Below, in pieces: positions 9,880 through 62,338 of a stretch of 64,000 nucleotides of DNA; position 1 is the stretch's first letter; the number at the start of each line of letters is the position of its first letter. The translations under genes and the position numbers were made by a program. The notes below the pieces were generated by a model that did no database searches, was not told where the DNA came from, and saw only the letters and a list, made by a program, of their open reading frames with translations. Origin of the DNA: a virus; the IMG/VR virus record IMGVR_UViG_3300045988_098382. One strand, 5' to 3'.

Positions 9880-9925
9880 ATCGCCATTCTTATATGTTAT
9901 TCTAATAGCAGTATTCAGATTCTAA

Positions 9926-10936
9926 TTACTTTTTGACATAGTTACTTAATTTTTTTATATAATACTTTATAAATTTTAAAGTATTCTGTCGACCATATTT
10001 TTTATAAAAATCACTTATATCTTTTACTTTGAATTTATGAGGTATAAAGAAATAAAGTAATTCTGGATGATTTCTTCTTATTTTAGCCATATTAAACATT
10101 CCAGGTCTATCATTATCATAAAAAGTTACTATATAAGTAAATCTTTCTTTTAGATCATTTAACATGTTTTCAGATAACCATTGTGTTTCACTATTTGGAG
10201 CACAGGCTGTTACACCTAAACCTTTTAAACACATAGTATCTTTCATACTTTTAGTTATGACTAATAAATTACCTTTTTTAGGTAACTGACTATAACCCTG
10301 AACTTTTTTAGAGGGCCAATTTGTTAGAAATCTATATTCCTTACGTTTAGGATAATAAATTCTCCACAATTCTTTACCTTTCATTGTTCCTCCATAATAT
10401 CCGAAGATAAAGTTATCTTTGGTCTTTATAGTTTGAATATTACCATTTAAAAATACAGTACGACAAGAATATACTTTATATTTATTTAGTAATTCTAAAG
10501 AAACTCCTTGTTTATTCCACCATTTTAATTCATCTTCTGAGAAATCTTTTATTTCTACTCGTATATCTGCTGGCTCGTTTGTTTTAACAAAAGAAGTGCT
10601 TGATTGTATTACAGAATGATAATTATTTTGTCCTTTTAATAAGCCAAAATCTTTAGCTATAATGTCTAATGCTTGATGGTATTTACAAGCATATTTAGTC
10701 ATAACTACAGATATAAAGTTTCCATAAAAACTCCCATTAAAATCATGAAATATAAGTTCTCCTTTAGAGTTACGAAAAAAGGAAGCCGTAGGATTTTTAT
10801 CTTTACGTAAAGGATTACAAATTAATTTTTTTGAAACTTTTACGCCAAGATAATACTCCATATAGGCTTCCTCTGTGTTATATTTAAGTAAGTAGTCCTT
10901 AGTAATATCTGGTTTATAAGAAAAATCTAATTCCAT
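9926..10936 (-). CDS. DnaG-like DNA primase (TOPRIM domain)
   Basis: Degenerate CHC2-like zinc motif CNPLRKDKNPTASF. TOPRIM E...DxD: LVITKSMKDTMCL ... VTFYDNDRPG. Confidence 0.6.
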   Translation of the reverse strand: MELDFSYKPDITKDYLLKYNTEEAYMEYYLGVKVSKKLICNPLRKDKNPTASFFRNSKGELIFHDFNGSFYGNFISVVMTKYACKYHQALDIIAKDFGLLKGQNNYHSVIQSSTSFVKTNEPADIRVEIKDFSEDELKWWNKQGVSLELLNKYKVYSCRTVFLNGNIQTIKTKDNFIFGYYGGTMKGKELWRIYYPKRKEYRFLTNWPSKKVQGYSQLPKKGNLLVITKSMKDTMCLKGLGVTACAPNSETQWLSENMLNDLKERFTYIVTFYDNDRPGMFNMAKIRRNHPELLYFFIPHKFKVKDISDFYKKYGRQNTLKFIKYYIKKLSNYVKK

Positions 10937-10959
10937 AAAAACTACTTACTTTATAATTA

Positions 10960-11730
10960 CTACATATCTGCCAGCATAGCGTCGAAGTCTTCATCTTGAG
11001 CCTCCTTGCCTTCAGTAGAGTCGATAGATTTAGCCTCTTCTGAATCAGCTGCTGGCACAGGAGCAGTAGGCTTACGCTTCTCCATATCCTCTTTCTGTTT
11101 AATCTCATAACTAGAGAATGACAATTTATCTTCTTCTAAGCTAGCAAAATTATCACGGATATAGAACTGCCCATCACTATTAATAGCTCCAATATCAGGA
11201 ATTTTGGCAAATACATTACCAGTTTCCTTCATAATTCCTTTTTCATCCTTTTTCTTTTCCTTACGACCACTAAGTTTTAAATAAAAGTTTTTATTCATAC
11301 AATACTTAGTCAATACTGCCTGGAAAAGCTGCATGAATTGGTCAGTACTCTTACAAGCAGGAGCTTTAGTTACAAACAATTCTTTAGCCTTATCACCTCC
11401 TACTACTGTTATAATATGCAGCATAAAACCCTTAAGCTGCTCAAATGCTGAAGGAAGTACATATGGGAACTCTACACCTTTAGAATCTTTTCTCTTACCC
11501 TCATATCTTTTAGCAGAATTTTCATTAGGATAAAATAATGACTCTTGATAAGTTCCTTGTTCTCCTTCAAAATGAAGTACTAGAGATTTCCAAGTTGTAT
11601 CAGGGTCTTGCTTACCTTTACCCTCTTTAACTTCTACACTTTTTAACTGAACGAGATAAATTCCATAAGGACGAAGACCTTTCTTACTTGTAGGATTAAT
11701 ATCACCAAGACCACCAAAATTTAAATTCAT
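10960..11730 (-). CDS. Putative ssDNA-binding protein (acidic C-terminal tail)
   Basis: C-terminus ...EAQDEDFDAMLADM resembles the acidic SSB tail. GC-enriched codons. Lies in the replication cluster. Confidence 0.4.
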   Translation of the reverse strand: MNLNFGGLGDINPTSKKGLRPYGIYLVQLKSVEVKEGKGKQDPDTTWKSLVLHFEGEQGTYQESLFYPNENSAKRYEGKRKDSKGVEFPYVLPSAFEQLKGFMLHIITVVGGDKAKELFVTKAPACKSTDQFMQLFQAVLTKYCMNKNFYLKLSGRKEKKKDEKGIMKETGNVFAKIPDIGAINSDGQFYIRDNFASLEEDKLSFSSYEIKQKEDMEKRKPTAPVPAADSEEAKSIDSTEGKEAQDEDFDAMLADM

Positions 11731-11742
11731 ATTGCTATATTA

Positions 11743-17464: not shown

Positions 17465-17672
17465 TAATATGGTAATCCTTTTTCAAGGCGTAAATATTAT
17501 TTATCAATTTTTAGTAATTTTAGTTATCTAGGATTATAATTTCTGCATCCATACTTAGCAAAATTACATTTAAGCATGTCCATATTTACTAAGCATTTAT
17601 ATCTTTTACAATTCTTACAATCTCTATCTGGAAATTTAAATTTCTTACCGTCAGTATCCTTTATGTAAGTAT

Positions 17673-18038
17673 CTAATGTATTAGAGCACATATTATAGAT
17701 AATATACTTATACCTCCAAATAAATAATTCAATTTTGATAATTTTTTATTTTGTATATACAATTCATTATTTTTATCAGATTGAATCTTTATTTGATAAT
17801 CTTTATATGTTAGCGTACTATCCATTGTATTTACTAAAGATTTATAGTTATTTATTTGAATTTTTTGTAGACTATCATTTACTAGTAAATATTTATGCTC
17901 ATTAAAAATAAGATTAGTTATTTTTAATTGATACGGTGTCAATAAGAAGTTTTCTCCCGACTTCTTGAATGTAGTTTGTGAAAAACTGCATGTCGCTATC
18001 AGGAGACTGCTTAATAATATTGTCCTTCTCTTTAACAT
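17673..18038 (-). CDS. Lipoprotein with C-terminal TM segment (u-spanin-like). Start at internal Met MLKRRTILLSSLLIATCSF.
   Basis: n-region KRR, hydrophobic core, lipobox-like LIATC, C-terminal hydrophobic LFGGISILSIICALIH. Its 5' end overlaps the upstream membrane-protein gene in another frame. Confidence 0.4.
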   Translation of the reverse strand: MLKRRTILLSSLLIATCSFSQTTFKKSGENFLLTPYQLKITNLIFNEHKYLLVNDSLQKIQINNYKSLVNTMDSTLTYKDYQIKIQSDKNNELYIQNKKLSKLNYLFGGISILSIICALIH

Positions 18039-18246
18039 AGATAGTTTTATTATAGTAGATAGCAGTATCACACTTATTGATATCAACTTTAATAGAATTT
18101 TTCTTACTATTTAATGAGTCTATTTTTCTTTCTAAAGTATCTGTAGGTATTACAGTGGTAGATTTAAATCCTTTATATAAAAAGATAGTAGCTCCTATAA
18201 TAGTAATTAAAACTAATATTAAAATTATTCTATCTAAAAGTTTCAT
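17914..18246 (-). CDS. Type II (N-in) membrane protein, i-spanin-like
   Basis: N-terminal TM IILILVLITIIGATIFLY. The rest is hydrophilic and predicted periplasmic. Overlaps the lipoprotein gene. Confidence 0.4.
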   Translation of the reverse strand: MKLLDRIILILVLITIIGATIFLYKGFKSTTVIPTDTLERKIDSLNSKKNSIKVDINKCDTAIYYNKTIYVKEKDNIIKQSPDSDMQFFTNYIQEVGRKLLIDTVSIKNN

Positions 18247-27356: not shown

Positions 27357-27417
27357 ATTTTTAGTAAGATTAGCGTTATCCAATTCACACCACGTGGAGG
27401 TTCTTACTATGTGAATC

Positions 27418-27497
27418 TTGCAGAGGCGGGATTCGAACCACTTTGTGCGACCTCTTGGTTATGAGCCAAGCGAGATAACCAACTTCTCCACTCTGCG
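27418..27497 (-). tRNA. tRNA-Met-like (CAU) with C1-A72 mismatch (initiator-like) and a weak T-stem
   Basis: Acceptor CGCAGAG/CUCUGCA. D-stem GAGA/UCUC. Anticodon stem CUUGG/CCAAG, loop CUCAUAA. T-loop UUCGAAU present but the 5' T-stem half is imperfect. Confidence 0.45.
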
Positions 27498-34955: not shown

Positions 34956-35048
34956 AATTAACAGTTAAAATTAAACAAAAATCCCTGAACTATAATAATA
35001 GCCCAGGGATTAAAAACAAATAATAATAAAAACAGTTCTATGAACTAG

Positions 35049-35377
35049 TGGAGCATTGGAGAGTCGAACTCCAGTCTTGCATATTTGCATCAAAGCATTC
35101 TTACAGCATAGGTTTTAAAGACTATCCTTGTCTTTTAGGGTTGACAGGATTAATATACTGTCAACTTCCACCACTCTGTTCCTAAAGTATACAGAGAACT
35201 TATAGAATTGTCAATGGCGCACCTTTCTGTTCCTAAGCAAGTGCTGCTCGGCTTATTAGGCAGCAGCCTGATAAGCAGGAGTCATATTAATAACTCTAGC
35301 ATTTATTGTTTTGTTGTCTTTCCAACTGTCTTTGCTGTGCTTCTTATCTCCTATACAATCAAAACCACGAATGCCCC
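35049..35377 (-). ncRNA. ssrA: tmRNA (ssrA), phage-encoded
   Basis: 5' GGGGCAU pairs with 3' AUGCUCC, including a G3-U70 wobble (the alanine identity element). 3' T-arm UGGAG-UUCGACU-CUCCA then discriminator A. Internal tag frame ...NMTPAYQAAA followed by UAAUAA double stop, then GCC... as in bacterial tmRNAs. About 329 nt, no protein ORF. Confidence 0.7.
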
Positions 35378-42299: not shown

Positions 42300-43029
42300 C
42301 TTAGTTAGAATCTTTTAAGAATAATACTAATTCTTTTTTAGTACATGGTATTTCATATTTTTTACACCATTTTCGGATTGTAGTATCTGACACATTATAA
42401 AATTTACCTACAGCAACAAATGATTTTAACTCTTTAAATTTATTTATAAAATCCTATTTAGCTGGTAAGTCTACTTTTTGTGCCATTTTAGCAGCACATT
42501 TAGGACAATATCTAGCAGCTTTTGTTTTCTTTTCTGCTCCACATAATTCACAAAAATATTTTGCAGCTTTGTTTGCTTGTCCACAATAGTTATCTGTTTG
42601 TGAATGACAATTTGGGCATAGCATTTGTAAATTCTCTAACCTATTGTCTCTATTATCGCCGTTAATATGATGTAGCTAACATATTAAAGGATTATCTAAC
42701 CAATATCCATTCTTACAAGGGCACTTAGGATTCTCACACTCATTCTTTTTAAGACCCTCTTTAATTAACTTTTCTTTTAATTTAGTGGTATGAATATATT
42801 TTCCAGTACCTAAATATTCTTTTACTGGGACATAATTCTCAATTCCTTTTTTACTCTTTGCTCCATAAGTAAAATGAGAGTAATCTATATTATACTCTTC
42901 TAATCTTTTTCTTAATGTAGCAGTATTATTACCTGCTCTAGGTATATTTAGTTTTTCTAATACCTAAGATAATGAATCACAGTCTGCAATAACTGATTCA
43001 ATTCTTTCTTTTGACCAATCATACTTCAT
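42300..43029 (-). CDS. HNH homing endonuclease requiring read-through of three in-frame TAG codons (recoded)
   Basis: Hand translation from ATG at 43029: MKYDWSKERIESVIADCDSLS[TAG]VLEKLNIPRAGNN...NPLIC[TAG]LHHINGDNRDNRLENLQMLCPNCHSQTDNYCGQ...AKMAQKVDLPAK[TAG]DFINKF...ends TAA. Contains the canonical HNH motif. No TAA/TGA in frame. Absent from the standard-code ORF track. Confidence 0.65.
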
Positions 43030-43415
43030 ATTACATATTCTTAAAATTAGAAGGATATAGAGGAGTTAAACCTCTTCTTTTGGGGTCAAATCCCAACGTG
43101 ACTGTCGTTACACCAATATCCCTTGTATCTAATAGATAGCACTGTAGTGCTACCATTACACCATAGCCCATTATTAAAACTTTCTATCTTCACAGACCGA
43201 AAGTTTTCTAACTCTTTAACGTTTTTACAATCCGCTGATTGTAATATAATAATTCAAACAATTTCTATGAATTAGTAGCACTAGCGATACTCGAAATCGC
43301 CTTTGGATCTTGAAAGAATCCCGTCCTGACCAGCTAGACGATAGTGCCAAGTAGATTCTCTATCTATCACAGACTAAGAATTCCAAGAAAAAGTAATATT
43401 AAGATAAATTCCATG

Positions 43416-43489
43416 CGCACCCTGTAGGATTCGAACCTACGACTTTCTGACTAATAGCCAGACGTTCTAACCAACTGAACTAAGAGTAC
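43416..43489 (-). tRNA. tRNA with unusual anticodon loop CUAUUAG (formal anticodon AUU; a 1-nt register shift would give UUA)
   Basis: Acceptor GUACUCU/AGGGUGC (two G-U). D GUUC/GAAC. Anticodon stem UCUGG/UCAGA. T-arm GUAGG-UUCGAAU-CCUAC. Confidence 0.5.
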
Positions 43490-43904: not shown

Positions 43905-43990
43905 GAATTTGTACGGTAGAAAGGATTCGAACCAATGACCTTCTCGAAATGACCTATTATAAAAAGAGATGCTCTAACCACTGAGCTACT
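43905..43990 (-). ncRNA. tRNA-like gene with perfect acceptor and D-arm but a 4-bp anticodon stem enclosing a 20-nt loop and a degenerate T-stem
   Basis: Acceptor ACGGUAG/CUACCGU. D GCUC-AGUGGUUA-GAGC. UCUC-(20 nt)-GAGA. T region UGGUUCGAAUCCUUU. Same architecture as 44426..44506. Confidence 0.35.
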
Positions 43991-44050
43991 ACCGTAAGTA
44001 CTAGTTTATATCGGAAAACTAGTAAAACGTTAACACATTATTATGGAAAC

Positions 44051-44425: not shown

Positions 44426-44506
44426 TACGGAGTAAAGGATTCGAACCAGTATAACCTCTCTATGAATTGTGGAAGTGAGGTGCTCTAGCCATTAAGCTAA
44501 CTCCGC
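44426..44506 (-). ncRNA. tRNA-like gene, paralog of 43905..43990 (20-nt expanded anticodon region)
   Basis: Acceptor GCGGAGU/ACUCCGU. D GCUU-AAUGGCUA-GAGC. CCUC-(20 nt)-GAGG. T region UGGUUCGAAUCCUUU. Confidence 0.35.
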
Positions 44507-46676: not shown

Positions 46677-47209
46677 TGATAAATTCCTCCCAAAGATAAT
46701 TGTGCTTGTAATATTTCTAAGTCACTTTTAATTGGAAGTTCTTTACCATGAATAGCTTTGTACTCTTTACTTACTTGTGCAATAGTTTTCTTTTTAGAAA
46801 AAACTAATGCTGTAATCTTAATAATGTCTTTTGTTTCCATTTTTTTTTAACTATTTAATTATTAATAATGTGCCATCACCTTTCTCATTTAAGAGTCTGC
46901 TACTTTGGATATGCAGGATGTAGGTTTACACTAGAGCCCTATCTGTCACAGACTGAACTCTAATATTTGTCTTTGTAATCTATTGTGCTTATGTACATAA
47001 TAGATTACTAAAGTAACTAGCCCTATCTATCACAGACCGAACTAGCGAAAATGATCTAAACTGTATATTGTTGATAACTATTTTATTTTAAAAATACATA
47101 AGTCTTGTCTTATGATTAACCAATTTACTTTCCAAGATGCCAACTATTTATTATACTCTATAGTACTAGAGTGCAGCTTAATCCTTTTGTATTAATAATA
47201 TGACAATTA

Positions 47210-47584
47210 CTAATACACTATACTTCTTAAAGATTCGTAACCTTCATATATTGGAAATTCCGAATTAAGAGTAATCTTAATAAATACTCTATCATCAATA
47301 GTTACAAGTCCTACAGTTTTAATATTGCGATTACAATTATCAAAACTAGTACAAATAACTGTATTAGAGGTAAAATCTGTTACACCTTTAAAACCCATAT
47401 CAACAAGAACTTTACATATAGGTGTTAAGTAATAAATACTACCTTCCTTGATAACACAAGAAGAAAATGGAATTACTCTATCACCAATGTGATAAGTTCT
47501 AGTATCACGATCTATTGTGAGAGCCTTACCTGCAAGACTCTCACAACCTGATACAATTTTTTTATTTAAGTTCTCTGTATTCAT
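47210..47584 (-). CDS. Hypothetical protein
   Basis: 124-aa ORF. Confidence 0.4.
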   Translation of the reverse strand: MNTENLNKKIVSGCESLAGKALTIDRDTRTYHIGDRVIPFSSCVIKEGSIYYLTPICKVLVDMGFKGVTDFTSNTVICTSFDNCNRNIKTVGLVTIDDRVFIKITLNSEFPIYEGYESLRSIVY

Positions 47585-48020
47585 CGATTACGTCAATTAA
47601 GTCCTGGAATGTATATTTTCCAATATCTGATTTATCTTCAACCAAATAAAGAGCTTTAGCGATTTGTTTAAGCTCAAATTTAGTTAACTCACCCAACTTG
47701 TACTGCTCAATTTTTTTAACTAGCACTCGCATAGTGTCATAAGCATTGTAAGAGAAAGTATGTTCTCCGCCAGATTTTCTAGTATATGTAATATATTTAC
47801 TATCACAATACTTTATATCATCATGGTTAATAAGACCATTAGCACAAGCATCCATTTGAGCTTTCAAAGCTTCTACTATAACATTAGTATAAGCCTCAAA
47901 TACTTTCTCTGCAAACTCTTTGAAATCTTTTTTTGATGGAGTTTCAGAGAATGCTACTTTCTTAAAAGGAATAGTCACAGAAATTGTGTATTCCTTTTCA
48001 TTTTGTATTACATTTATCAT
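47562..48020 (-). CDS. Hypothetical protein
   Basis: 152-aa ORF. Confidence 0.4.
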   Translation of the reverse strand: MINVIQNEKEYTISVTIPFKKVAFSETPSKKDFKEFAEKVFEAYTNVIVEALKAQMDACANGLINHDDIKYCDSKYITYTRKSGGEHTFSYNAYDTMRVLVKKIEQYKLGELTKFELKQIAKALYLVEDKSDIGKYTFQDLIDVIDEYRELK

Positions 48021-52519: not shown

Positions 52520-52917
52520 AACCTTTTTGCTTTTTAAATGTTAAACTTTTTTTTTGTTTGGTTTTTACTCCAAATATGTGGGGGGCTCTAAGGGGCAGTC
52601 TACTCCCTCCCACATAATAAAAATTAATTTTTAAATCCAAATCCTCACCTTATTTTCTCCATAAAAATCCCTATTTTTAAACCCTAGGGGGCTATATAAA
52701 ATCTTCTCTAAAAAAATTTTAAAATTTTAATTTAAAAATCTTAGAATATTAACTTTTACAAAAATTAACTTTTAATATTCCATACCTCGACTATATTACT
52801 CGTGTAATCAAAAAGAAATATTAAATGAATAAAGAACAACTAATACAAAGTATTAAAAACCTTCCTGATTAGTATAATATAAATTTATAGGTTATTGATA
52901 ATGTAATTCATATAACT

Positions 52918-53127
52918 ATGACTAAACAGGTAGATGAATTTGAAGAATATTGTAGTAAATTAGATGATGAAACATTTAATAATGCTTGTCTAATATTTGG
53001 AATTATCTCAGATATATCTTTAGAAGATTTTTCTTCTAATTTATATAATTCTAAATATAAAAAATATAAACAAGAATTTAAACATATAGTAGATTTTTTA
53101 AATGATAGAAACATTACAAAAAATTAA
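52918..53127 (+). CDS. Hypothetical protein
   Basis: 69-aa ORF at the start of the plus-strand island. Confidence 0.35.
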   Translation: MTKQVDEFEEYCSKLDDETFNNACLIFGIISDISLEDFSSNLYNSKYKKYKQEFKHIVDFLNDRNITKN

Positions 53128-53323
53128 TAAAGTAGTTCCTAATCTTACAGTATCTCAATTAATAGAACTGGTAAATATTATTAATGGACCTAAATTAACT
53201 ATAGATAATATGATTTTAAAAGGTATAAAAGATATACCGCATAATGGGCTTATTTCAATAGACACTAGTAATAATAAAACTACTTCTACTGAAAATCCTT
53301 TTAATGTTAATAGTTATCTATAA
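53102..53323 (+). CDS. Hypothetical protein
   Basis: 73-aa ORF. Confidence 0.35.
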   Translation: MIETLQKINKVVPNLTVSQLIELVNIINGPKLTIDNMILKGIKDIPHNGLISIDTSNNKTTSTENPFNVNSYL

Positions 53324-53332
53324 AGATAATAT

Positions 53333-53404
53333 TCTCCTATGGTGTAATGGTTAGCACAGAAGACTCTAAATCTTTTAGTCAGGGTTCGAATCCTTGTGGG
53401 AGAA
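53333..53404 (+). tRNA. Amber suppressor tRNA (anticodon CUA), probably tRNA-Gln-derived
   Basis: Acceptor UCUCCUA/UGGGAGA (U1-A72, one G-U). U8. D-arm GUGU-AAUGGUUA-GCAC. Anticodon stem GAAGA/UCUUU, 7-nt loop CUCUAAA (U33, C34-U35-A36, A37). T-arm CAGGG-UUCGAAU-CCUUG. Discriminator A. Confidence 0.8.
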
Positions 53405-53496
53405 GAATAGTATAAGTAGAAACCTCCACGTGGTGCTATTCGGGTAACGCTAATTCTACTTCAAAACATAACAAAGTTTAAATTTTTAAATAAGAA

Positions 53497-54174
53497 TTGA
53501 ACATGGGTTATATTTATTGTATTACAAATTTAATTAATGAAAAGAAGTATGTTGGAAAAACAACATATTCAGTTACAAAAAGATTCCAAGAACATTGTAG
53601 GGATTCCAAAAAAGAAAGATGTGAAAGAAGACCTCTGTATGATGCTATGAATAAGTATGGTATTGAAAATTTTGTAGTGGAAGAATTAATAGAGTGTCCG
53701 AATGATGAGCTAGATTCATATGAAAAAATGTATATAGAAAAATTACAAACTTACGGACACAATGGCTATAATGCTACTAAAGGTGGAGATGGCTCTATAC
53801 TATTTGATTATGATAAAATTATTGAAACCTACGCGTTAGGAGGTACTATGACTGAATGTGCTGCCAAAATGCATTGTTCAGTAGATACAGTTAAAAAAGT
53901 ATTAACTATTAATAATATTCCTATAAGACATAATCGAAGAGGTTGTTGTTCTGACCCTAAAAAAGTAGAACAATATTCTCTTGAGGGAGTCTTTATAAAA
54001 GAATGGGAAAGTATAACATTAGCTGCTCATTGGTTAGTAGATAATGGTTATGCTAAAACTTATAATAGTGGAGTAAAACAAAAAATAAGATTATGTATGC
54101 GAGGAAAAAATAAAACAGCATATAAATTTATTTGGAAATTTCCTCAAGAAGAACATGATATCAGCAATTTATGA
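53497..54174 (+). CDS. GIY-YIG homing endonuclease
   Basis: N-terminal GYIYCITNLINEKKYVGKTT...RFQEH matches the GIY-(10-11)-YIG core with Arg and Glu. C-terminal basic DNA-binding region. Confidence 0.8.
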   Translation: MNMGYIYCITNLINEKKYVGKTTYSVTKRFQEHCRDSKKERCERRPLYDAMNKYGIENFVVEELIECPNDELDSYEKMYIEKLQTYGHNGYNATKGGDGSILFDYDKIIETYALGGTMTECAAKMHCSVDTVKKVLTINNIPIRHNRRGCCSDPKKVEQYSLEGVFIKEWESITLAAHWLVDNGYAKTYNSGVKQKIRLCMRGKNKTAYKFIWKFPQEEHDISNL

Positions 54175-54439
54175 ATTAAATGGTAAGATTTTAAAAACAA
54201 CTAATCTTACTAAAAAATTAAAACGATTAAAATCAGAACCTAAGATTCTATTTCAATTAGAAAATGGAACAGAAGCTGATTTAGACCAATGGATTAAAGA
54301 CAACCAAAATATAAATTCTAATTCAGAAAAAGAAGATATAGAAATTAAAAAATATCATTATAGAAATCCAATTACAGGATATACAATGACTTCTATATAT
54401 GATAATCTAGATGTTAATGGTTATATAAAAATTGATTAA
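54155..54439 (+). CDS. Hypothetical protein
   Basis: 94-aa ORF. Confidence 0.4.
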   Translation: MISAIYELNGKILKTTNLTKKLKRLKSEPKILFQLENGTEADLDQWIKDNQNINSNSEKEDIEIKKYHYRNPITGYTMTSIYDNLDVNGYIKID

Positions 54440-54633: not shown

Positions 54634-54668
54634 AAATAGCCGGAGCTTCTCATTTGAGAAACTTCGGC
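54634..54668. terminator. Bidirectional hairpin terminator at the convergence of the plus-strand island and the recoded minus-strand block
   Basis: GCCGGAGCUUCUCAUUUGAGAAACUUCGGC near-perfect hairpin, then UAUUGUGGUUUU. Confidence 0.5.
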
Positions 54669-54677
54669 TATTGTGGT

Positions 54678-57516
54678 TTTAATGTCCCAACTCCTACAAA
54701 AACTATCTAAAATGGTAAGATCTAGTCTGAGGATAATACTCCCGATTATTCATATTGTTATATATATCTATAAAACCTCCAATAGTGCCTGTACTTACTC
54801 CTATAGGAGTGACATATTTATTCCACTAATACTAAATATTATCAACTTTTCTTTGTGGTATTACAGAAAAATTAGTTTGCCAAGCATGTGTACGACTTTC
54901 CTAAAGTTTTTTATTCCATTTTCTATACTAAGGATATTTATAATAAGCTTTAGTATAATCATACTGAGGCTTAGAAGAATAGACATAATTATTAAGAGGA
55001 CTATATTCTGTAGTCTATTTTACTTTAGGTCCAAACCCACTATACTTTACATATTTACCCCATCTCATAGGAGCAGTATAAGGGTTAATAACTTGATATT
55101 CAGGGAATCCCATGCTTGTATAATCTCTAAAATCAAATCTAGGATTTGAACCTATTTCTAGCATATTAGTAGCTCCTGACTAAGATCCTGAAGAGTAACT
55201 TTTTAATCCGATAGTAGGCTACTACAAAGCACCAAAATACTTACCTCCATTATATGTCTCTCCATAATATCCATTTATATTTAATTTTTTAGCTAACTCT
55301 GTAGTCTATTTGGTACCTTCTTCTATAGATAAAGTACCCTAAGCTACTTTTCTATTAATATCATCAAATAAATAATAATTTGGGTCTGTTCTTTGTAATC
55401 TATTTTTTATAGAATTTACATAATCCTAAAAAGAATTAATGCCAACTCTATTATTTAATATAGCCGTAACATCTCCTCCTAAACCTCCCCTTGAAGAATT
55501 TAATAACTAATTACCTCCAATTCCTGAAGCCTATCCATTAAATGGGGCTACTACGGAACGAAGAGCATTATTTTCTGTAGTAATATCCCATTTTGGAGTA
55601 AATTTAGAAGACCAGAATGCTGTTCTTATTCCCATATTATCTGCTATTAAATTCTAATTAACTATAGATTCTACAGCATCGTCACTATAAACCTATGGAA
55701 TATTCCATCTAGTTCTAGCTTCCTAAATTTCCTAAGGAGTTAACTTTAGTCTAGCCCAATCATTAGTAACAGCATTAGTATTCATTTTCTAGATTCTATT
55801 AGTTAGCCAAGGACTACTAAACATTTGAGCTTGTCTACCTACTTGCTTAGGTTTAAAACCATTATAGTTATCCATAGCTACCATTAAATCATATATTCTA
55901 GGATGTTTCTATAATTGGATATATAATTCTTCAGCTTTTATAGGCAGAGCCTACTCTGTAGTATTAAATACTTGACCTTTCTATATAGCTGTGTTACCTA
56001 GTGATTCCCACTATTTCTATAACTATTTATATTTCTATGGGTATAGTCTAGAATAATAATTATGAGCTAACTATCCTGTAGCATATCCTTTAGCATCTTC
56101 TCCAATAGTCTAAACATCGATTACATGATTACCATCAGAATTAAATACTTTGTTATTACCTTCTAAGGACTATTTAAACCCATTAGATGGTCCATATTGA
56201 GATCCTTTTTTACCAATACTTTTCTAGACTGCTCCTAATCTAGATTTAGTTGTTAGTAACTCTAAGTCATGAGGTACTCCGTTAATAATTCCAGAACCAT
56301 ATAATCTTGTAGAACCTCCAACAATAGCACTACCATTTAGAGTAGTTTCTAAATCTTTTAAATACTAACTTAACTCAGAAATACTTGAAGTAACTTTACC
56401 AGTTTCATAATTTATTTTTGGGCGAATAGTTACTTCTTGTCCATTTAAATTAATAGTTACGCTAGGATCTTTAATCTATTTTAAATTAGTTGCATAATCA
56501 GCGTGCCATTGTTTTCCACTTTTAGCAGTAGCTTTCCAATCAATTCTAGGATTATGAGTTCTAGTGTATGTTATATTTCTATATTCAGATAGAGCATTAG
56601 GATAAGTCGCCTCTAAATCAGACATTTTATTTTGTAGCTACTATTCATAAGCTTCTTTAGATGCAGATCTAGCCTCACCTATACTACTCCAAGTATATTT
56701 TTTATTAATTATATCAGATAATCTTTTAGCGGGTTTCCAAGATTTATAAATTCTATTAATACCATAAGGAGCAAAAGTAAAAGCGGTATTTAATCCAGCA
56801 CTTGCGTAATTTTTATCTTTAATATCGTGGTGTATGTCAGCAAGATTTTGCCCTATAAACATAGCATTACCTATACCTCTAGCAGTAGCACTAGGTAACA
56901 TACTAAGTACCATAGAAGTACCAGTATTTATATCATGTATAGATTTTAATAATCTATAACCTAAAGGAGCATCCCACTAAGAATTATTTACAAGATTTCC
57001 ATTACTATCTTTTAAATACTATCCAGTTTCTAAGTCTTTTAAGAATGGATCTTCTGGATTATAATCTACTGATCTATCAGACTATATATTAGGAGATACT
57101 TTATAAGTACTGCGATAATTAGCCTCAGCCTTATCTCTAGCATTTTTAGCTAGTACTTTACTTCCTGAGGTTTTTGAAGACGCTAACTCAGCAGCATTGC
57201 GCACTTTATTAATATTTATTTTGTGTGCATTATTAAAACCCTAGTTTACTTCCTATTTATTAGTTCCTCCAGTATTTACTAATCTATTTTTTCTATATAT
57301 AGGAGCATAAAATGTTTTTACTCTAGTACTATTATTCTATTCAATATGCTGAGGCACAACTTCTACCTAAGGTCTCTATAATTTTTGAGTTCTCTTCTAA
57401 AGATTTTGAAGATTCTAATATAAAGATTTTACTGAAACACCATTATCTTTAGAATTAAATAAATTTATTCCTCCCCAAGACTATTTATAATTATTATCTT
57501 TTACCTATACAGCCAT
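54678..57516 (-). CDS. Large recoded protein (about 945 aa, more than 40 in-frame TAG codons), probably virion/tail-associated
   Basis: Hand translation from ATGGCUGUAUAG... (M A V Q V K D N N Y K Q S W G G I N L...) down to a UAA at 54678..54680. Contains the fragment the track reports as 56641..56913. TAG is the only in-frame stop. Coordinates approximate. Confidence 0.5.
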
Positions 57517-58638
57517 GGTGTTCTTACTATTACTGGAGTTCCTAATTTATCTAATATTTTTAATCCTAACACAGCTTTACTGTCTAAATCATATAAACTC
57601 CATTTCTACTTATATTCATCAGGATTAAACTTCCAAATATCTTGTGCTCTATATACTTTTTTACCATTAGATATTCCTTCCTAAACTAAATGTCCAGCAG
57701 CATCAACTCCATTATCTCCAAAGTCTAGATTATTATTAGCACCTTTCCAAGGAGTTTTATTAGTTACATTAGAAGCTTTCTACATAGGTCTCTTAGTAAA
57801 GAAATCTAAAGTTTCAGTATTTTCATATACAGGAATATTTTTATATGGGTATATCTTTCTTATATAATTCTCATGCGGACCATAATCTATATTTATTTTC
57901 TTTACTCCATAAGAAGGATTAATAGTTTTATTATATAAATAAGCATCAATCATATCATTACCTTTAGCTGCTTTCTAAAATCCAGTATATGCTTCAGGAG
58001 CATAAGTATTATACCCTATACCAGTTGATATATAAGATAATACTCCAGCATGTTTTTTAGGACTTACTTTATGCATATTATATACTATATCTTCTATAGG
58101 ATTAGCATTATTAGAAGTTCTCATAGCTACTTCTACTCCACGTTTTAAAGGAGCTTTTACAGCATATCCTATTGCAGGAAGTATTAATAAATAATTACTA
58201 GCTTTAGTTGGATTTCTAGATATATCTAAAGCACCTTTAGTATAGTCATATATTGCCTAAGCAGCTGGAGCTAAAGCATAACCTATTCCTGAATTAACTA
58301 ATGCTTTAATAGGACTAGTATTATTATTCCAACTGTCTATTTCTCTAGCATATGCTCCTTTTATAGGATGATTTCTATTCTTATTACTATAATTATATAA
58401 TTTAGAATTAGTATGTCCTCCCCTATTTTATAGTTCCTCTATTATCTACAAATACATCTCGTATACTATTTAAAGTTCTAACTGGAATAACTCTCTACTA
58501 ATATTTAGCACCAAAATATGGAGATTTAAATCTAGGATGACTTAGTCTATTCTAATACTCCATATTTATAGCCATCTATTTATTCCGAGTATTATTATTT
58601 ACTCCCTTGTTTTGTTTACTCTCATCTACTATTGGCAT
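57501..58638 (-). CDS. Recoded protein (about 379 codons) with a frame discontinuity at a GGGG run near 58410
   Basis: Starts MPIVDESKQNKGVNNN... Frame 1 hits UAA just after AAAUAGGGGAGG. A -1 shift in the G-run continues a clean ORF (...GGHTNSKLYNY...GIGYALAPAAQAIYDYTKGALDISRNP...TPWLYR*) with TAG as sense. Confidence 0.4.
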
Positions 58639-58640
58639 AT

Positions 58641-58856
58641 TTATACTTTATTTTTCCATATACTAGTTATACTGTCTATACCTAATAATCCCATACAACA
58701 ATATAAAACTGTATCTACCATATCTGGTGCTTGTATCTAACTAATAGAACAGTATATTAGAATAATTAAACTAACTATCCATCCTAATATTCCACATACT
58801 CTTTTACTACTTATTCCAGTATGTGCTGTTACTAATTTAATTAAAAACTCTTTCAT
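58641..58856 (-). CDS. Holin-like small membrane protein (72 aa, one in-frame TAG)
   Basis: MKEFLIKLVTAHTGISSKRVCGILGWIVSLIILIYCSIS[TAG]IQAPDMVDTVLYCCMGLLGIDSITSIWKNKV: two TM segments. Sits 1.8 kb from the SLT lysin. Confidence 0.45.
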
Positions 58857-59354
58857 TAATTAACTTAGATAACCAACTATAATGTTTTCTATGACTTAGA
58901 TAATCTAAATTACCCTAATTCTAATAAGCTTCTCTTTCAAAGGAGATATTTTTATAAGCTAATTTAGTATCTCTGTACATAATTAATCTAATTAAATATT
59001 CTATTATATACCATAAATAAAAACCTATCCACAATAGTTCCTATCCCTATTTAGTATGTATAGTCTCATGATTTATATCTATCTTATTTAGTATTCTTCT
59101 ACAGAATAGTATGCCAAATAAATTTATACATTTAAAACCTTTTGGAGGTAAGATATTATTAATTATTATTTTCATTGTCTAAGTAATCTAATATTTCAGT
59201 AATAGTATGAGATTCTATTAATAAATAGTTTTCATTTTCTAATTGATCCAAGAGACCTTTTCCAAGTGTGATATACATTTTTAAAACTTTAAATATTTAT
59301 TCCATAACTACTTATCTCTCTCATTTACGAAATCTAAAAATCTTTGTAATTCCT

Positions 59355-59875
59355 CAATCTTTTCTGTCAAAGTATATGTATCCATTATTATTTTTATTAG
59401 GTTTTAAATTAAATCCATTACCTTTAGTTTTAGTAACATACAATGTGGGAAGAACATTAGCCCCATCATAAACTATTTTAGTTCCACCATTATTATAATC
59501 ATAATCGGAGCCTAGATAGTCCATAGTATAATCTAAAGGTTTTCCACTATTAGGTTTTATATATTGATCTTTACTTAAATAATATATCTTATTATCTTTA
59601 CTCCAAGATTTATCTCCTAAATCTGGATAAGTTGCATGTGATTTAGTTTTATAAGTTCCTGAAGCTCCTTCATCAGAAAAATGTCCAGTAGGAATATGTT
59701 TACTCCAATTATGTGCTAAAATACTATTTAACTATAGCCAAGCTACTATAGGTTGGTCATTATAATATTTTCTATAATCATAATGATCTTTAGATAAATC
59801 TTGATTATTCCAGGCTTGAGACAACCACTTACTCCAAGTATTATAATTATATAAAGGCTATTTATTTTTTGTCAT
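59355..59875 (-). CDS. Recoded hypothetical protein (about 173 aa)
   Basis: MTKNK[TAG]PLYNYNTWSKWLSQAWNNQDLSKDHYDYRKYYNDQPIVAWL[TAG]LNSILAHNWSKHIPTGHFSDEG...ends TGA. Start overlaps the upstream stop (AAUGAC). Confidence 0.45.
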
Positions 59876-60662
59876 TATATGTAGATATTCCAAATTTAAT
59901 AAAATCCCCAACATTTCCAGTAAGTCCTAGCATATCTAAAACTAAATCAATTTTAGGATTATGAAATCTAGTTACATCAGAAGCTCCTAAAGTTCCAGCT
60001 ACTCCTAATGTTCCACTAGTAGCATTCCAGGTAGTTTCAAAAGTATTGTTATTTTTAATAGCATCATAAGTCTAATAGCCATCTATTAAAGTACCTCCAA
60101 CCTACATAGGTAATTGGGCTTTCTAAAGAAAATTTGCTACAGCTCTTTTAGTAGCAGAAGTAGCTGTTTCCCATTTTCTCCAATTAGAATAGGCTCCTAA
60201 TATAGAACCTCCTGACAAACCTAATTCTATAGCAGTTAAAGTAGCATCAAGACCATTTTTATAATCTTTCCATTTATCTAATTTTTTTTGTATTTGATTT
60301 TTAATAGCTTGTTCTACTTTAATAGACTAAGAAGTATTTATATCAGCTTGCATTGCATTCTAAATAAAATTAGCTTTTTGCTAAAGATTATTATTAGTAT
60401 TAGGAGTAACTTTTATATTAGAAAATAACTAAGAATCTTTGTTCTAATTTTTTTTCATTCTAAGCTATCCTTCTTTACTATTTATATACTTTTCTCTATT
60501 TTTTATATTTAACTATTTTGTTTTTAACTATTCCTATTTAATACTATCTATATTTTCCTTAGACTATCTAGCTATTCTATCCTAGTAATCTTCTTCTGAT
60601 TCCCAACTTTTCTTTTTTAATGTAGGAGTTGCTCTTACAGGAACTACATTACCACGTTGATA
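59862..60662 (-). CDS. Recoded hypothetical protein (about 266 aa, more than 25 TAG codons), Gln/Lys-rich N-terminus and Gly-rich hydrophobic C-terminus
   Basis: MLKLIPKYQRGNVVPVRATPTLKKKSWESEEDY[TAG]DRIAR[TAG]SKENIDSIK[TAG]... start codon nested in the SLT stop (AAUGCUUAA). Confidence 0.5.
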
Positions 60663-61338
60663 TTTAGGAATTAATTTAAGCATTTCTAAATTTATTTATA
60701 TATTTTGCAACATTAGTACCATTAGCATCAGATCCTCCTGTAATACCATACTTATAATAATTTTTAGCCCATGTTGGATTTAGCCATGATGCTGCTATAG
60801 CTTCTCCAGTAACTGTTATACCATTATTTCTTAAAAATCTTGCATTATCATCATATAATTGTGAAGCAGCTAATACTTGTGCATCAGGGCTATTTTTAAA
60901 TTGTTCTCTAGATAAATTAGAATAACTTTTTCTAGTACTATCTATAAACTAAAAATATCCAGCAGCAGAACTATTTTTAGACTAAGCTTTAGGGTTAAAT
61001 CTTGATTCTAAAGAAGCTATCTTCATTAAAGTAGTTTTCTTGTTTCCAGTGATACCATATTTATCTAAAGTCTACTCTAGTATCTACTTATTTTTACTAG
61101 GAGTATTATGATTTAATTTAAGCTAGGTATATTTATATTGTACAGGCTCTTTAGCTTTGTTAATAGAAAAATATCCATCTAAATTTAAACCATTAATATG
61201 AAAATCTCCAGTATTTAATTCAGGAATAAACTAATATTGCCTAGGAGTAAAATCTAAATCTAAGCCTTTACTTTTTAGTACTTCTGTAGCAGGTTTATCA
61301 GGAATATCTAAAGCTTCATATTTAAAATATTCACTCAT
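60655..61338 (-). CDS. Lytic transglycosylase (SLT domain, family-1 lysozyme-like) encoded with 7 in-frame TAG codons
   Basis: ...MKIASLESRFNPKA[TAG]SKNSSAAGYF[TAG]FIDSTRKSYS... matches the SLT consensus E-S-x-F-N-P-x-A-x-S-x-x-G-A-x-G-L-M-Q-(F/L). The invariant Gln of GLMQ is supplied by a TAG codon. ATGA overlap with the upstream HNH gene. Stop TAA. Confidence 0.75.
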
Positions 61339-61580
61339 AATTTTATTAAACCATTATGTATTTTAGAATGACAATTTTTACAAACACAAACTGTTTGAGA
61401 TAATTCTTTAATAAATAAATCTGTAGGTATGTGACTTACAGCTTGTGATATATTAAATAATTTTTCTCCAATATGATGAAATTCTAAACAACATTTAGCT
61501 GATTCACCACATACTATACATTGTGTTTTATGTTCATTTAAAATCTTTTTATTTTCTTTATAATATTTATTCTTACGCAT
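61335..61580 (-). CDS. Small HNH endonuclease
   Basis: CIVCGESAKCCLEFHHIGEKLFN...CVCKNCHSKIHNG: CxxC + HH...N + CxxCH..H HNH/Zn motif. Standard-code ORF. Confidence 0.6.
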   Translation of the reverse strand: MRKNKYYKENKKILNEHKTQCIVCGESAKCCLEFHHIGEKLFNISQAVSHIPTDLFIKELSQTVCVCKNCHSKIHNGLIKL

Positions 61581-62338
61581 AATTAGAATAATTATTAGGC
61601 TAATTAAAATTAACTAGAGCTAGAGGTCCTAATCCTTGAGTAGCTCTATAATAATTAATTCTTTTCTTCACTCCAGGTCTTGTAAGTAATAAATCTTTTT
61701 TATAGCCATTATAACCTTTTTCGGAGTTATACATATACTTAACATTTTTTTGTATTCCGTTATAATACTACTAAAAATTCTAAGCTTTAAGCGAATCTGG
61801 ATACATTCTACTATGCCAATCAATTAAATGCTATGCAAAAGATTGTGCATTAGGATATTTTTTATTATCTCCAGTAGCAAATCCAGTCCAACCTTTTTCT
61901 GCAACCTTTTGATTAGTTAAATCTAAAGCTGCTTGTGGAGTAACTCCTTTATCTACTAAAGCTTGATATATCTAAGTTACATTGTCATATTGACTTTTAG
62001 TTCCAGGTATCTTACCTGCTAACTACATTTTAAGAATAGTACCTCCATTAGCATGTTTCCATTTAGCAGCATTTCTAGCAAAATTAGCTCGACGTTTTTG
62101 TAAAGGAGTAGCATTAGGATTACTTAATACAGATCTAGCATGTTCCTATACAGATTCTCCAGCTGCTTTAGCTGATGCAGTAAACTTACCCTTATTTTTA
62201 TCTTTTATATGGATAGTATTTTTTCTATCTTTTATCTATCCGCCTTTCTTTAGTTTATTTATAAAACTAAACTGATTTTTAATCTTAAAATCCTAATAGG
62301 CAGAATAAATTCTTTCTTGTAATTCAGAATTAGTCATA
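61571..62338 (-). CDS. Recoded hypothetical protein (about 255 aa, 10 in-frame TAG codons)
   Basis: MTNSELQERIYSAY[TAG]DFKIKN...GESV[TAG]EHARSVLSNPNATPLQKRRANFARNAAKWKHANGGTILKM[TAG]LAGKIPG... ends TAA. No TGA/TAA in frame. Confidence 0.55.

What the first reader, a model, noticed from the sequence alone, without database searches (positions are those of the whole stretch)
53333..53404. Phage-encoded amber suppressor tRNA(CUA) on a separate plus-strand island next to a GIY-YIG endonuclease
A well-formed 72-nt tRNA with a 7-nt anticodon loop CUCUAAA (anticodon CUA) is the only plus-strand tRNA in the window. It is flanked by hairpin terminators and sits beside a GIY-YIG homing endonuclease. 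It is the obvious decoder for the recoded block. U1-A72 is reminiscent of tRNA-Gln, but discriminator A73 is atypical, so the charged amino acid is not certain. Its separate transcription unit suggests it is the timing switch for late-gene translation.
Basis: seen in the sequence. Interest (0 to 1): 0.8.

Follow-up and report, generated by a model that had tools for sequence, protein, structure and literature searches.

The report
Phage amber-suppressor tRNA with self-cleaving ribozyme
A gut phage carries a glutamine-type tRNA that reads the stop codon TAG for a block of recoded genes, and the "hairpin" just after it is a known small self-cleaving (theta/HDV-like) ribozyme that cuts the tRNA's 3' end; this is a known arrangement, but here a selfish nuclease gene has also landed next to the ribozyme.

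Summary
The tRNA is real: 53333-53404 (+), Rfam 63.6 bits, anticodon CUA, the only plus-strand tRNA in the window. It reads TAG in a heavily recoded minus-strand block (54679-62337: 93 TAG in 2425 codons). The replication and nucleotide-metabolism region is almost free of sense TAG.

TAG most likely means Gln. TAG alternates mainly with CAA in orthologues. It sits at the conserved Gln of an SLT motif. The tRNA shares U1-A72, A73 and a 19-nt D-arm with Bacteroidales tRNA-Gln, so A73 is not atypical.

The tRNA is not flanked by terminators. Bases 53405-53460 are a theta (minimal HDV-like) ribozyme (Kienbeck 2024) whose cleavage site lies exactly after A73. The tRNA sits inside a plus-strand gene string whose upstream ORF itself has two conserved TAGs.

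Close relatives show four states at this locus:
- plain tRNA;
- tRNA plus theta;
- tRNA plus theta plus GIY-YIG (this window only);
- tRNA split by an intron-like insert.

This GIY-YIG family is strongly linked to theta ribozymes, and I did not find that link reported.

Verdict: a new member of a known kind. The decoder role is well supported; the "timing switch" is untested.

The parts
53333..53404 (+). tRNA(CUA), a Gln-type amber suppressor. Acceptor 53333-39/53397-53403, anticodon CUA at 53366-53368, discriminator A73 at 53404, no encoded CCA.
   Evidence: Rfam 63.6 bits; covariation in 10 relatives; Bacteroidales tRNA-Gln features.
53405..53460 (+). Theta (minimal HDV-like) self-cleaving ribozyme. 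P1 53405-11/53435-41; P2 53415-21/53454-60; P3 53422-24/53432-34; P1.1 C53426-27/G53442-43; J4/2 CUAA with the catalytic C at 53450. The predicted cut lies between A53404 and G53405.
   Evidence: weak HDV-F-prausnitzii hit, 20.3 bits; the domain-by-domain parse has a core identical to theta no. 1 of PMC10879173; core pattern, 0 expected by chance. P1 6/7 and P2 6/7 pairs with changes on both sides, 98.6% paired.
53472..54154 (+). 683-bp insertion carrying the GIY-YIG homing-endonuclease gene (ORF 53503-54174, 223 aa, no TAG). It is absent from all close relatives.
   Evidence: GIY-YIG, homing endonuclease; relatives L196/L198/L201/L202 join window 53471 to 54155.
52825..53127 (+). orfA, the first ORF of the plus-strand unit. 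It has two in-frame TAG codons (52870-72, 52888-90) conserved in five relatives.
53102..53323 (+). orfB, TAG-free. Its stop codon lies 9 nt before the tRNA 5' end.
54155..54439 (+). orfD, a conserved small ORF. In relatives it follows the tRNA (or tRNA plus theta) directly.
54635..54672 (.). Strong hairpin between the convergent plus-strand unit and the recoded minus-strand block; a likely bidirectional terminator.
   Evidence: -22.5 kcal/mol, z -6.2, 0 of 200 shuffles.
54679..62337 (-). TAG-recoded gene block: 93 TAG, 4 CAG and 47 CAA in 2425 codons. It includes a 945-aa protein with 47 TAG and an SLT transglycosylase (60676-61338).
27363..27417 (-). Second theta ribozyme, immediately 3' of tRNA-Met(CAU) (27418-27497) and 7 nt before tRNA-Tyr. 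This is the endonuclease-free allele of a site that carries the GIY-YIG gene in MT835492.

Best explanation
This is a phage-encoded amber suppressor tRNA of glutamine type, made from a multi-gene plus-strand transcript.

Steps, with their status:
- The 5' end is presumably cut by host RNase P (inferred).
- The 3' end is made by the theta (minimal HDV-like) ribozyme encoded directly downstream. This ribozyme needs no upstream sequence and cleaves 5' of its own G1, that is, exactly after discriminator A73 (anatomy shown; catalysis inferred from four family members assayed in PMC10879173).
- The 2',3'-cyclic phosphate left behind must be removed and CCA added, because no CCA is encoded (inferred).
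- The tRNA looks like host (Bacteroidales) tRNA-Gln in U1-A72, A73 and the D-arm. It is therefore most likely charged by host GlnRS (inferred).
- It then inserts Gln at the 93 in-frame UAG codons of the adjacent block and at the scattered TAGs elsewhere (decoding as Gln is supported by comparative evidence).

The replication and nucleotide-metabolism region reads correctly in the standard code. It even uses TAG as a true stop with backup stops. Expression of the recoded block therefore depends on this tRNA, which matches the published code-switch model. Its role as a timer is not shown.

The GIY-YIG gene is a free-standing homing endonuclease that inserted 11 nt after the ribozyme. It is an optional selfish passenger, probably co-transcribed with the tRNA and released from it by the ribozyme cut.
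For: - tRNA.
- Recoding: 956-codon stop-to-stop frame, 945 aa from its ATG, with 47 TAG; TAG 93, CAG 4, CAA 47 in the block, against CAG 112 and CAA 193 with no sense TAG in 50 standard-code ORFs; in the 0-52 kb region nearly all TAGs lie upstream of the start or act as the stop, some with backup TAA; one selfish HNH ORF is the clear exception and one N-terminal TAG is ambiguous; that region encodes NrdD, primase, helicase and exonucleases.
- Gln: 15 variable TAG columns: CAA 9, CAG 1, others 5; TAG aligns to Gln of GWFQF in phiKZ gp144; 23 Bacteroidales or Prevotella genomic tRNAs with the identical 19-nt D-arm; 22 are tRNA-Gln, with U1-A72 and A73 in those inspected; the exception is a likely contaminant contig; 69-75% identity to these, at most 65% to any other window tRNA; crAss-like phage homologues annotated tRNA-Gln.
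- Ribozyme; the class and its in vitro activity are described in PMC10879173.
- Endonuclease as an optional insertion.
Against: - No expression, cleavage, charging or proteomic data exist for this phage.
- The Rfam HDV model scores below its gathering threshold (20.3 against 44). Rfam returned no match to a dedicated theta model, so membership rests on motif parse and covariation, and some aligned sequences were picked with a pairing filter.
- Close relatives manage with no ribozyme (L072, L208), so it is not essential for this tRNA.
- The acceptor pairs C2-G71 and U3-A70 differ from Bacteroides tRNA-Gln (G2-C71).
- The Gln signal from distant GIY-YIG homologues is mixed (Q, K, E, I).
- A second suppressor-like tRNA (UUA) could also read UAG.
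- Only SLT gives the recoded block a function, so 'late genes' is an assumption.
- orfA, upstream in the same unit, itself needs TAG suppression. That does not fit a simple early-expressed switch.
Confidence: 0.85

Rival explanations
1. The tRNA(CUA) inserts an amino acid other than glutamine (Trp, Tyr, Lys or Ile, as predicted for a minority of phage suppressors), or pyrrolysine as ARAGORN's label suggests.
For: Kienbeck et al. predicted non-Gln isotypes for about 30% of 180 suppressor tRNAs. Acceptor pairs 2-71 and 3-70 differ from Bacteroides tRNA-Gln. In CPR bacteria the same D-arm occurs in tRNA-His. Five of 15 variable TAG columns alternate with His, Tyr or Thr/Ala codons.
Against: CAA, which is two substitutions away from TAG, is the dominant alternative codon. 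TAG sits at the conserved SLT Gln. CAG is depleted where TAG is abundant. U1-A72, A73 and the D-arm match host-type tRNA-Gln. The cloverleaf is canonical, with GG in the D-loop and a TTCGAAT T-loop, unlike tRNA-Pyl. No pyl genes were seen.
Confidence: 0.07
2. The theta ribozyme belongs mainly to a selfish element rather than serving the tRNA. It accompanies the GIY-YIG homing endonuclease, either as its landing site or as a device that keeps the tRNA 3' end intact and frees the endonuclease mRNA. Thetas without an endonuclease would then be footprints left after its loss.
For: - In 27 distinct endonuclease loci, 14 of 21 tRNAs directly upstream of the endonuclease carry the theta core, against 0 of 91 other tRNAs.
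- In an unselected sample of 90 theta cores, 25 are followed within about 90 nt by this GIY-YIG family, some of them truncated.
- In two natural pairs with and without the endonuclease, the gene is inserted 4-11 nt after theta.
- Theta itself is a 75-nt indel at this locus.
- Relatives with no theta still keep the tRNA.
Against: Most sampled thetas (65 of 90) have no detectable endonuclease. Theta and the endonuclease are separable. The loci are phylogenetically related, so the counts overstate independence. Kienbeck et al. report that 85% of suppressor tRNAs in theta-bearing phages carry a theta, which suggests selection on the tRNA side.
Confidence: 0.3
3. The structure after the tRNA is an intrinsic terminator that makes the tRNA a separate, independently timed transcription unit.
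For: A 9-bp stem forms in the MFE fold of 53405-53441.
Against: No U-tract follows. The terminator scan does not call it. Its fold energy is no better than shuffles (z -0.79). Its core sequence is identical to an experimentally defined ribozyme class, and P2, which a terminator would not need, covaries. ORFs continue on the same strand to a strong hairpin at 54635-54672.
Confidence: 0.03
4. This tRNA is not the main TAG decoder. Another suppressor does the work, either the conserved tRNA(UUA) at 43911-43995 or a copy elsewhere in the roughly 180-kb genome, and this one is redundant.
For: A UUA anticodon can in principle read UAA and UAG. That tRNA-like gene is 100% conserved in five of six relatives, with one substitution in the sixth. 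Some recoded phages carry two or three suppressor genes (PMC10607447).
Against: The UUA tRNA has U37, an anticodon-stem mismatch and a weak T-stem. Reading UAA would break nearly all the phage's own stops (TAA 36 of 50). tRNA(CUA) is conserved, with compensatory changes, across diverged relatives.
Confidence: 0.08

Closest known systems
tRNA-Sup(CUA)-associated theta ribozymes of code-15 gut Caudoviricetes (Kienbeck et al. 2024, PMC10879173)
   Same: The order is the same: amber suppressor tRNA without CCA, then ribozyme G1 directly after the discriminator, in a low-GC phage with TAG-recoded genes and a likely Bacteroidota host. The ribozyme core (ACC U CC ACGU GGU ... GG GUAACG CUAA) is identical to their most frequent theta. 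P1 and P2 differ by compensatory changes.
   Different: The exact 56-nt sequence was not found in the held (truncated) supplement. Here a GIY-YIG homing-endonuclease gene follows the ribozyme, and close relatives lack the ribozyme or carry an intron-like insert instead. The paper does not mention either feature.
Stop-codon (TAG to Gln, code 15) recoded phages: crAss-like, Lak, Jade/Sapphire and phAss groups (Borges 2022 as cited in PMC10879173; Peters 2022, PMC9523058; PMC10607447)
   Same: A standard-code-compatible replication region sits beside a TAG-rich gene block. The phage encodes its own tRNA(CUA) of Gln type. crAss-like phages cr7_1 and cr60_1 carry an 82% similar tRNA(CUA) annotated tRNA-Gln.
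   Different: This is a different lineage, with contigs of about 180 kb. The proteins of the recoded block have no Pfam or PHROG annotation apart from SLT and a small 'protease'. cr7_1 and cr60_1 lack the theta core.
T4 SegB, a free-standing GIY-YIG homing endonuclease in the T4 tRNA gene cluster (PMC2330249)
   Same: It is a GIY-YIG endonuclease gene lying between or after phage tRNA genes. Its presence varies between related phages. It is not inside an intron.
   Different: Only the GIY-YIG domain is similar (Pfam SegE_GIY-YIG falls below its cut-off). Here the gene sits just after a self-cleaving ribozyme. The cleavage site and homing have not been tested.
HDV-like ribozymes at the 5' end of R2 retrotransposon RNA
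   Same: An HDV-type ribozyme cuts a co-transcript at its own 5' edge. This separates a host RNA (28S rRNA there, tRNA here) from the RNA of a mobile element.
   Different: This is an analogy only. It involves a DNA homing endonuclease, not a retroelement, and there is no evidence that the ribozyme serves the endonuclease mRNA.

Membership tests
tRNA (Rfam RF00005) | Covariance-model score above the gathering threshold, with a full cloverleaf | tested here: met
   63.6 bits against 29, model positions 1-71 of 71.
tRNA (Rfam RF00005) | Helices maintained by compensatory substitutions in relatives | tested here: met
   11 of 21 pairs have changes on both sides and none is broken, in 10 sequences.
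Amber suppressor tRNA of glutamine type | Anticodon CUA in a 7-nt loop with U33 and A37 | tested here: met
   Loop CUCUAAA.
Amber suppressor tRNA of glutamine type | Body resembles host tRNA-Gln (weak 1-72 pair, discriminator, D-arm) | tested here: met
   U1-A72 and A73 are shared, and the 19-nt D-arm is identical to Bacteroidales or Prevotella tRNA-Gln (22 of 23 genomic tRNAs with that D-arm are Gln; the exception is a likely contaminant). Identity is 69-75%. Pairs 2-71 and 3-70 differ from Bacteroides.
Amber suppressor tRNA of glutamine type | TAG codons occupy Gln positions in proteins | tested here: met
   TAG alternates with CAA or CAG in 10 of 15 variable columns. It aligns to the conserved SLT Gln. 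CAG is depleted in the block.
Amber suppressor tRNA of glutamine type | Aminoacylation with Gln and read-through in vivo | not testable with these tools
   This needs charging assays or proteomics.
tRNA-Pyl (ARAGORN label) | Atypical Pyl architecture (short D-loop without GG, 3-nt variable loop, 6-bp anticodon stem) and pyl genes | tested here: not met
   The D-loop is a canonical 8 nt with GG, the anticodon stem has 5 bp, and the T-loop is TTCGAAT. No pyl-like genes appeared among the ORFs scanned.
Theta (minimal HDV-like) ribozyme | Nested double pseudoknot: P1 of 7 bp starting at G1, then P2, a 3-bp P3, P1.1 (CC/GG) and a minimal P4 | tested here: met
   The parse |GAAUAGU|AUA|AGUAGAA|ACC|U|CC|ACGU|GGU|GCUAUUC|GG|GUAACG|CUAA|UUCUACU| matches the authors' delimiter scheme. 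Covariation supports P1, P2 and P3.
Theta (minimal HDV-like) ribozyme | Catalytic cytosine at the first position of J4/2 | tested here: met
   C53450 in CUAA, invariant in 11 aligned sequences.
Theta (minimal HDV-like) ribozyme | Cleavage site within 1 nt (up to 5 nt) of a tRNA 3' end | tested here: met
   G1 is 53405 and the tRNA ends at 53404.
Theta (minimal HDV-like) ribozyme | Curated covariance model above threshold | tested here: inconclusive
   Only RF02682 (HDV-F-prausnitzii) matched, at 20.3 bits against a gathering score of 44, E 0.13. The second copy scores 27.4 bits. No dedicated theta family matched in the Rfam scans.
Theta (minimal HDV-like) ribozyme | Mg2+-dependent self-scission, abolished by the C-to-U change | not testable with these tools
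   Shown for four other family members in PMC10879173.
GIY-YIG free-standing homing endonuclease | GIY-YIG catalytic domain | tested here: met
   PF01541 scores 37.8 bits against 22.6; phrog_314 and phrog_7168 are 'homing endonuclease'.
GIY-YIG free-standing homing endonuclease | Presence or absence varies at an otherwise conserved site, and the gene is not inside an intron or intein | tested here: met
   It is absent from L001, L071-73, L196-L202 and L208, whose flanks are 90-98% identical. A second site shows the same pattern.
GIY-YIG free-standing homing endonuclease | Site-specific cleavage of the endonuclease-free allele, and homing | not testable with these tools
   This needs enzyme assays or co-infection crosses.
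Code-15 (TAG to Gln) recoded phage | Long ORFs appear only when TAG is read as sense, the recoded genes are clustered, and other genes are standard-code compatible | tested here: met

The most novel reading that the evidence does not exclude
Theta ribozymes may be tied to a family of GIY-YIG homing endonucleases that colonise the 3' flank of phage tRNA genes. On this reading the ribozyme is the landing pad or companion of the selfish gene. It restores an exact tRNA 3' end and releases the endonuclease mRNA from the tRNA co-transcript. It would thus play the role that self-splicing introns and inteins play for other homing endonucleases. Many endonuclease-free thetas, including those beside suppressor tRNAs, would be footprints of this traffic rather than dedicated regulators of the genetic-code switch. 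The tRNA(CUA) locus would then be a hot spot contested by two selfish strategies: theta plus GIY-YIG downstream of the tRNA, and an HNH-carrying intron in the anticodon loop.
Probability: 0.3. Interest if true: 0.6.

Novelty: new member of a known kind. Interest (0 to 1): 0.35.

Why it matters
The core finding is a textbook case of a recently described system: a suppressor tRNA plus theta ribozyme in a TAG-recoded gut phage. It mainly serves correct annotation. The genes must be read in code 15, the tRNA labelled Gln rather than Pyl, and the 'terminator' labelled a ribozyme.

The extra value lies in the natural allelic series at one locus: plain tRNA, plus theta, plus theta and endonuclease, or split by an intron. 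It shows that the ribozyme is dispensable for this tRNA. It also links theta ribozymes statistically to a homing-endonuclease family. That link bears directly on the open question of what theta ribozymes are for, tRNA or code-switch regulation versus selfish-element biology, and it offers ready-made constructs for testing.

Tried and rejected
1. 'Theta plus GIY-YIG is one mobile cassette.' The first comparison with MT835539 and L071-73 suggested this, because both elements were missing together. It was rejected when L196, L198, L201 and L202 showed theta without the endonuclease at the same locus.
2. Terminator reading of 53405-53441: rejected.
3. tRNA-Pyl label: rejected on architecture.
4. 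Search for a Bacteroidetes-type promoter (TTTG...TAnnTTTG): 4 hits against 3.5 expected, and none in the 52520-52824 intergenic region. The sigma-70 scan was at background. No promoter could be assigned.
5. GC-rich inverted repeat at 52578-52615: no better than shuffles.
6. Search for tRNA-repair or CCA-adding enzymes among 10 further window ORFs: none found. The window covers only about a third of the genome.
7. Pfam and PHROG annotation of recoded-block proteins: nothing except SLT, a small 'protease' PHROG and an HNH. The 'late/structural' label could not be verified.
8. Rfam group I intron model on the relatives' tRNA insert: only 17 bits, E 0.04 in a 321-nt search, so inconclusive.
9. The exact ribozyme and tRNA sequences were not found in the held, truncated supplements of PMC10879173.
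10. The Borges 2022 paper is not in the held library. It is cited only through PMC10879173.

Full report
**Observation**

ARAGORN finds 18 tRNA genes in the window. Seventeen lie on the minus strand and one on the plus strand at 53332-53405 with anticodon CTA. Rfam's tRNA model places the plus-strand gene at exactly 53333-53404 with 63.6 bits against a gathering score of 29, and adds one more minus-strand tRNA.

The sequence reads UCUCCUA-UG-GUGU-AAUGGUUA-GCAC-A-GAAGA-CUCUAAA-UCUUU-UAGU-CAGGG-UUCGAAU-CCUUG-UGGGAGA-A. It is a canonical cloverleaf with U1-A72, discriminator A73 and no encoded CCA.

Ten related tRNA(CUA) genes from IMG/VR contigs keep the fold. 11 of 21 pairs show compensatory changes and none is broken. 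All keep U1, A73 and the loop CUCUAAA. The gene is real and under selection.

**The recoded block**

Reading TAG as sense merges fragments into long minus-strand ORFs between 54679 and 62337. One frame of 956 codons between stops (945 aa from its first ATG) holds 47 in-frame TAGs. The block has 93 TAG, 4 CAG and 47 CAA in 2425 codons. Fifty standard-code ORFs elsewhere have 112 CAG, 193 CAA and no sense TAG.

The 0-52 kb region encodes NrdD, exonucleases, primase, a DnaB-like helicase and NAMPT. Nearly all its TAGs lie upstream of the start codon or act as the stop. Two of those stops are followed immediately by TAA, and a third is followed by a stop three codons later. One exception is a selfish HNH ORF next to tRNA-Gln(UUG). 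A TAG at codon 8 of ORF 9370-9945, just after a possible start, is ambiguous.

This is the split layout described for code-15 phages, as summarised in PMC10879173. Code 15 has proteomic support in crAss-like phages (PMC9523058). Only one protein of the block has a recognisable domain, an SLT transglycosylase. Calling the block 'late' is therefore an inference.

**Which amino acid**

- Four orthologues of the 945-aa protein (88-95% identity) give 57 alignment columns with at least one TAG. In the 15 variable columns the alternative codon is CAA nine times, CAG once, and His, Tyr (twice) or Thr/Ala otherwise. CAA is two substitutions from TAG, so mutational proximity does not explain this.
- In the SLT protein a TAG aligns with the Gln of the conserved G-x-F-Q-F motif of phiKZ gp144.
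In the 23 Bacteroidales or Prevotella hits, 22 of the tRNAs carrying it are tRNA-Gln(UUG/CUG). The one exception, a UUA-anticodon gene on a Dysgonomonas MAG contig, looks like a eukaryotic tRNA-Gln and is probably contamination. The Bacteroidales tRNA-Gln genes I inspected have U1-A72 and A73.
- The suppressor is 69-75% identical to those genes. It is at most 65% identical to any other tRNA in the window.

In CPR bacteria the same D-arm occurs in tRNA-His, so the D-arm alone does not define the isotype everywhere. Charging remains untested.

**What follows the tRNA**

A small Rfam search gave a weak hit to an HDV-like ribozyme (RF02682, 20.3 bits) starting at 53405, the base after A73. Kienbeck et al. 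2024 (PMC10879173) describe 'theta' ribozymes. These are minimal HDV-like ribozymes whose cleavage site abuts phage tRNA 3' ends. One fifth of the associated tRNAs are suppressors, almost all of them amber, and 96% of such phages are code 15. Four examples self-cleave in vitro.

[quoted passage not shown] The core is identical, and P2 differs by compensatory changes.

The core pattern occurs twice in the window, against zero expected by chance. The second copy follows tRNA-Met(CAU) at 27.4 kb.

Across 11 sequences, the pseudoknotted structure is 98.6% paired, against 26-43% when partners are slid. Six of seven P1 pairs and six of seven P2 pairs show changes on both sides. One caveat applies: several of these sequences were picked with a pairing filter. 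However, every spacer holding the conserved core that I inspected by eye also pairs, with one degenerate exception.

The terminator scan calls nothing next to the tRNA. The local fold is no better than shuffles, and no U-tract follows. The 'hairpin terminator' is a ribozyme.

**Transcription context**

The tRNA starts 9 nt after the stop of orfB. It lies in a plus-strand string: orfA, orfB, tRNA, theta, GIY-YIG, orfD and a further small ORF. A 305-bp intergenic region bounds the string at 52520-52824, and a strong hairpin closes it at 54635-54672 (-22.5 kcal/mol, z -6.2).

orfA has two in-frame TAGs conserved in five relatives, together with its protein sequence. The unit that makes the suppressor therefore also needs it. 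No promoter could be assigned. The 'separate unit as timing switch' idea is neither supported nor excluded.

**The GIY-YIG gene and the allelic series**

ORF 53503-54174 is a GIY-YIG homing endonuclease. Close relatives, with flanks 90-98% identical, show four states at this locus:

- (a) tRNA followed directly by orfD (L072/L211, L208);
- (b) tRNA plus theta plus about 19 nt, then orfD, with no endonuclease (L196, L198, L201, L202);
- (c) the window, equal to (b) plus 683 bp (53472-54154) carrying the endonuclease;
- (d) tRNA split after U35 by a 222-nt insert (L071) or a roughly 1-kb insert with an HNH ORF (MT835539/L001, L073, L209).

In state (d), exon 1 ends in U and the insert ends in G. 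The Rfam group I model gives only 17 bits, E 0.04.

The ribozyme and the endonuclease are therefore separable and optional at this tRNA.

**A link between theta and this endonuclease family**

- Homologues of the endonuclease in IMG/VR (contigs mostly of 80-190 kb) nearly always start 20-100 nt after a same-strand tRNA (Met, Leu, Pro, Cys, Glu, Asn). Usually a theta ribozyme lies in between.
- Within 27 distinct loci, 14 of 21 tRNAs directly upstream of the endonuclease carry the theta core, against 0 of 91 other tRNAs (Fisher 5e-13). The loci are not phylogenetically independent.
- In an unselected sample of 90 unique theta cores, 25 are followed within about 90 nt by this family. Some of these copies are truncated remnants.
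- A second natural pair exists. The window's tRNA-Met-theta-tRNA-Tyr lacks the endonuclease, while MT835492 has it inserted 4 nt after theta.

Kienbeck et al. do not mention homing endonucleases in the main text or the held supplements. None of the seven held papers that contain 'theta ribozyme' appears, from its title or abstract, to address homing endonucleases. The closest precedent for the endonuclease is T4 SegB in the T4 tRNA cluster (PMC2330249).

Whether theta is the homing target, a device that neutralises the insertion, or merely a neighbour is not resolved.

**Verdict**

The decoder and Gln interpretations are well supported. The element is a new member of a known kind: a code-15 phage suppressor tRNA with a theta ribozyme. 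The timing-switch claim remains a hypothesis.

The most novel reading not excluded is that theta ribozymes belong to the biology of a tRNA-flank homing endonuclease. I give this a probability of about 0.3.

Noticed in passing
window 43911-43995 (-): A second suppressor-like tRNA with anticodon UUA (ochre type). It is 85 nt long with a long variable arm, U at position 37, a mismatch in the anticodon stem and a weak T-stem (Rfam tRNA 53.2 bits). It is 100% identical in five of six relatives, with one substitution in the sixth, while the flanks vary. Reading UAA would clash with TAA being the phage's main stop codon. Its function is unexplained.
   Followed up: partly
window 27363-27417 (-): A second theta ribozyme lies directly after tRNA-Met(CAU) and 7 nt before tRNA-Tyr. 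The orthologous site in MT835492 (L004 2551-3236) holds a TAG-containing GIY-YIG gene whose start codon is ACG.
   Followed up: yes
L001 5475-6475; L073 about 9387-10380; L071 9392-9607; L209: In several close relatives the same tRNA(CUA) is split between U35 and A36. The insert is 222 nt, or about 1 kb with a 272-aa HNH ORF. The boundaries look like a group I intron (U before the 5' junction, G at the 3' end), but the Rfam Intron_gpI score is only 17 bits.
   Followed up: partly
window 42301-43029 (-): An HNH endonuclease ORF with three in-frame TAGs starts about 21 nt after tRNA-Gln(UUG). It is homologous (27% identity, E 8e-18) to the HNH ORF inside the relatives' tRNA(CUA) insert. This is another selfish nuclease parked at a tRNA 3' flank.
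   Followed up: partly
window 10957-11739, 47207-47587, 17661-18110 (-): Three genes of the standard-code region end in TAG. Two are followed at once by TAA, and the third by a stop three codons later. These look like backup stops for the time when the suppressor is active.
   Followed up: partly
window 35046-35377 (-): An Rfam tmRNA match just above threshold (48.1 bits against 47). ARAGORN does not call it.
   Followed up: no
window 61335-61580 (-): A small TAG-free HNH endonuclease ORF sits inside the otherwise heavily TAG-recoded block.
   Followed up: no
window 43415-43489 (-) and 44426-44506 (-): ARAGORN calls a tRNA with the unusual anticodon AUU (labelled Asn). An extra tRNA is seen only by Rfam (43.7 bits).
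   Followed up: no
L072 11754-11838 (+): A close relative carries a RAGATH-1 hammerhead ribozyme (76.6 bits against 56.3) in the region corresponding to about 51.1-51.5 kb of the window. The window itself has no such match.
   Followed up: no
L004, L005, L006 (GIY-YIG homologues): Homologues of the endonuclease in other phages contain 3-4 in-frame TAG codons each, whereas the window's copy has none. This may indicate recent arrival or expression before suppression is available.
   Followed up: partly
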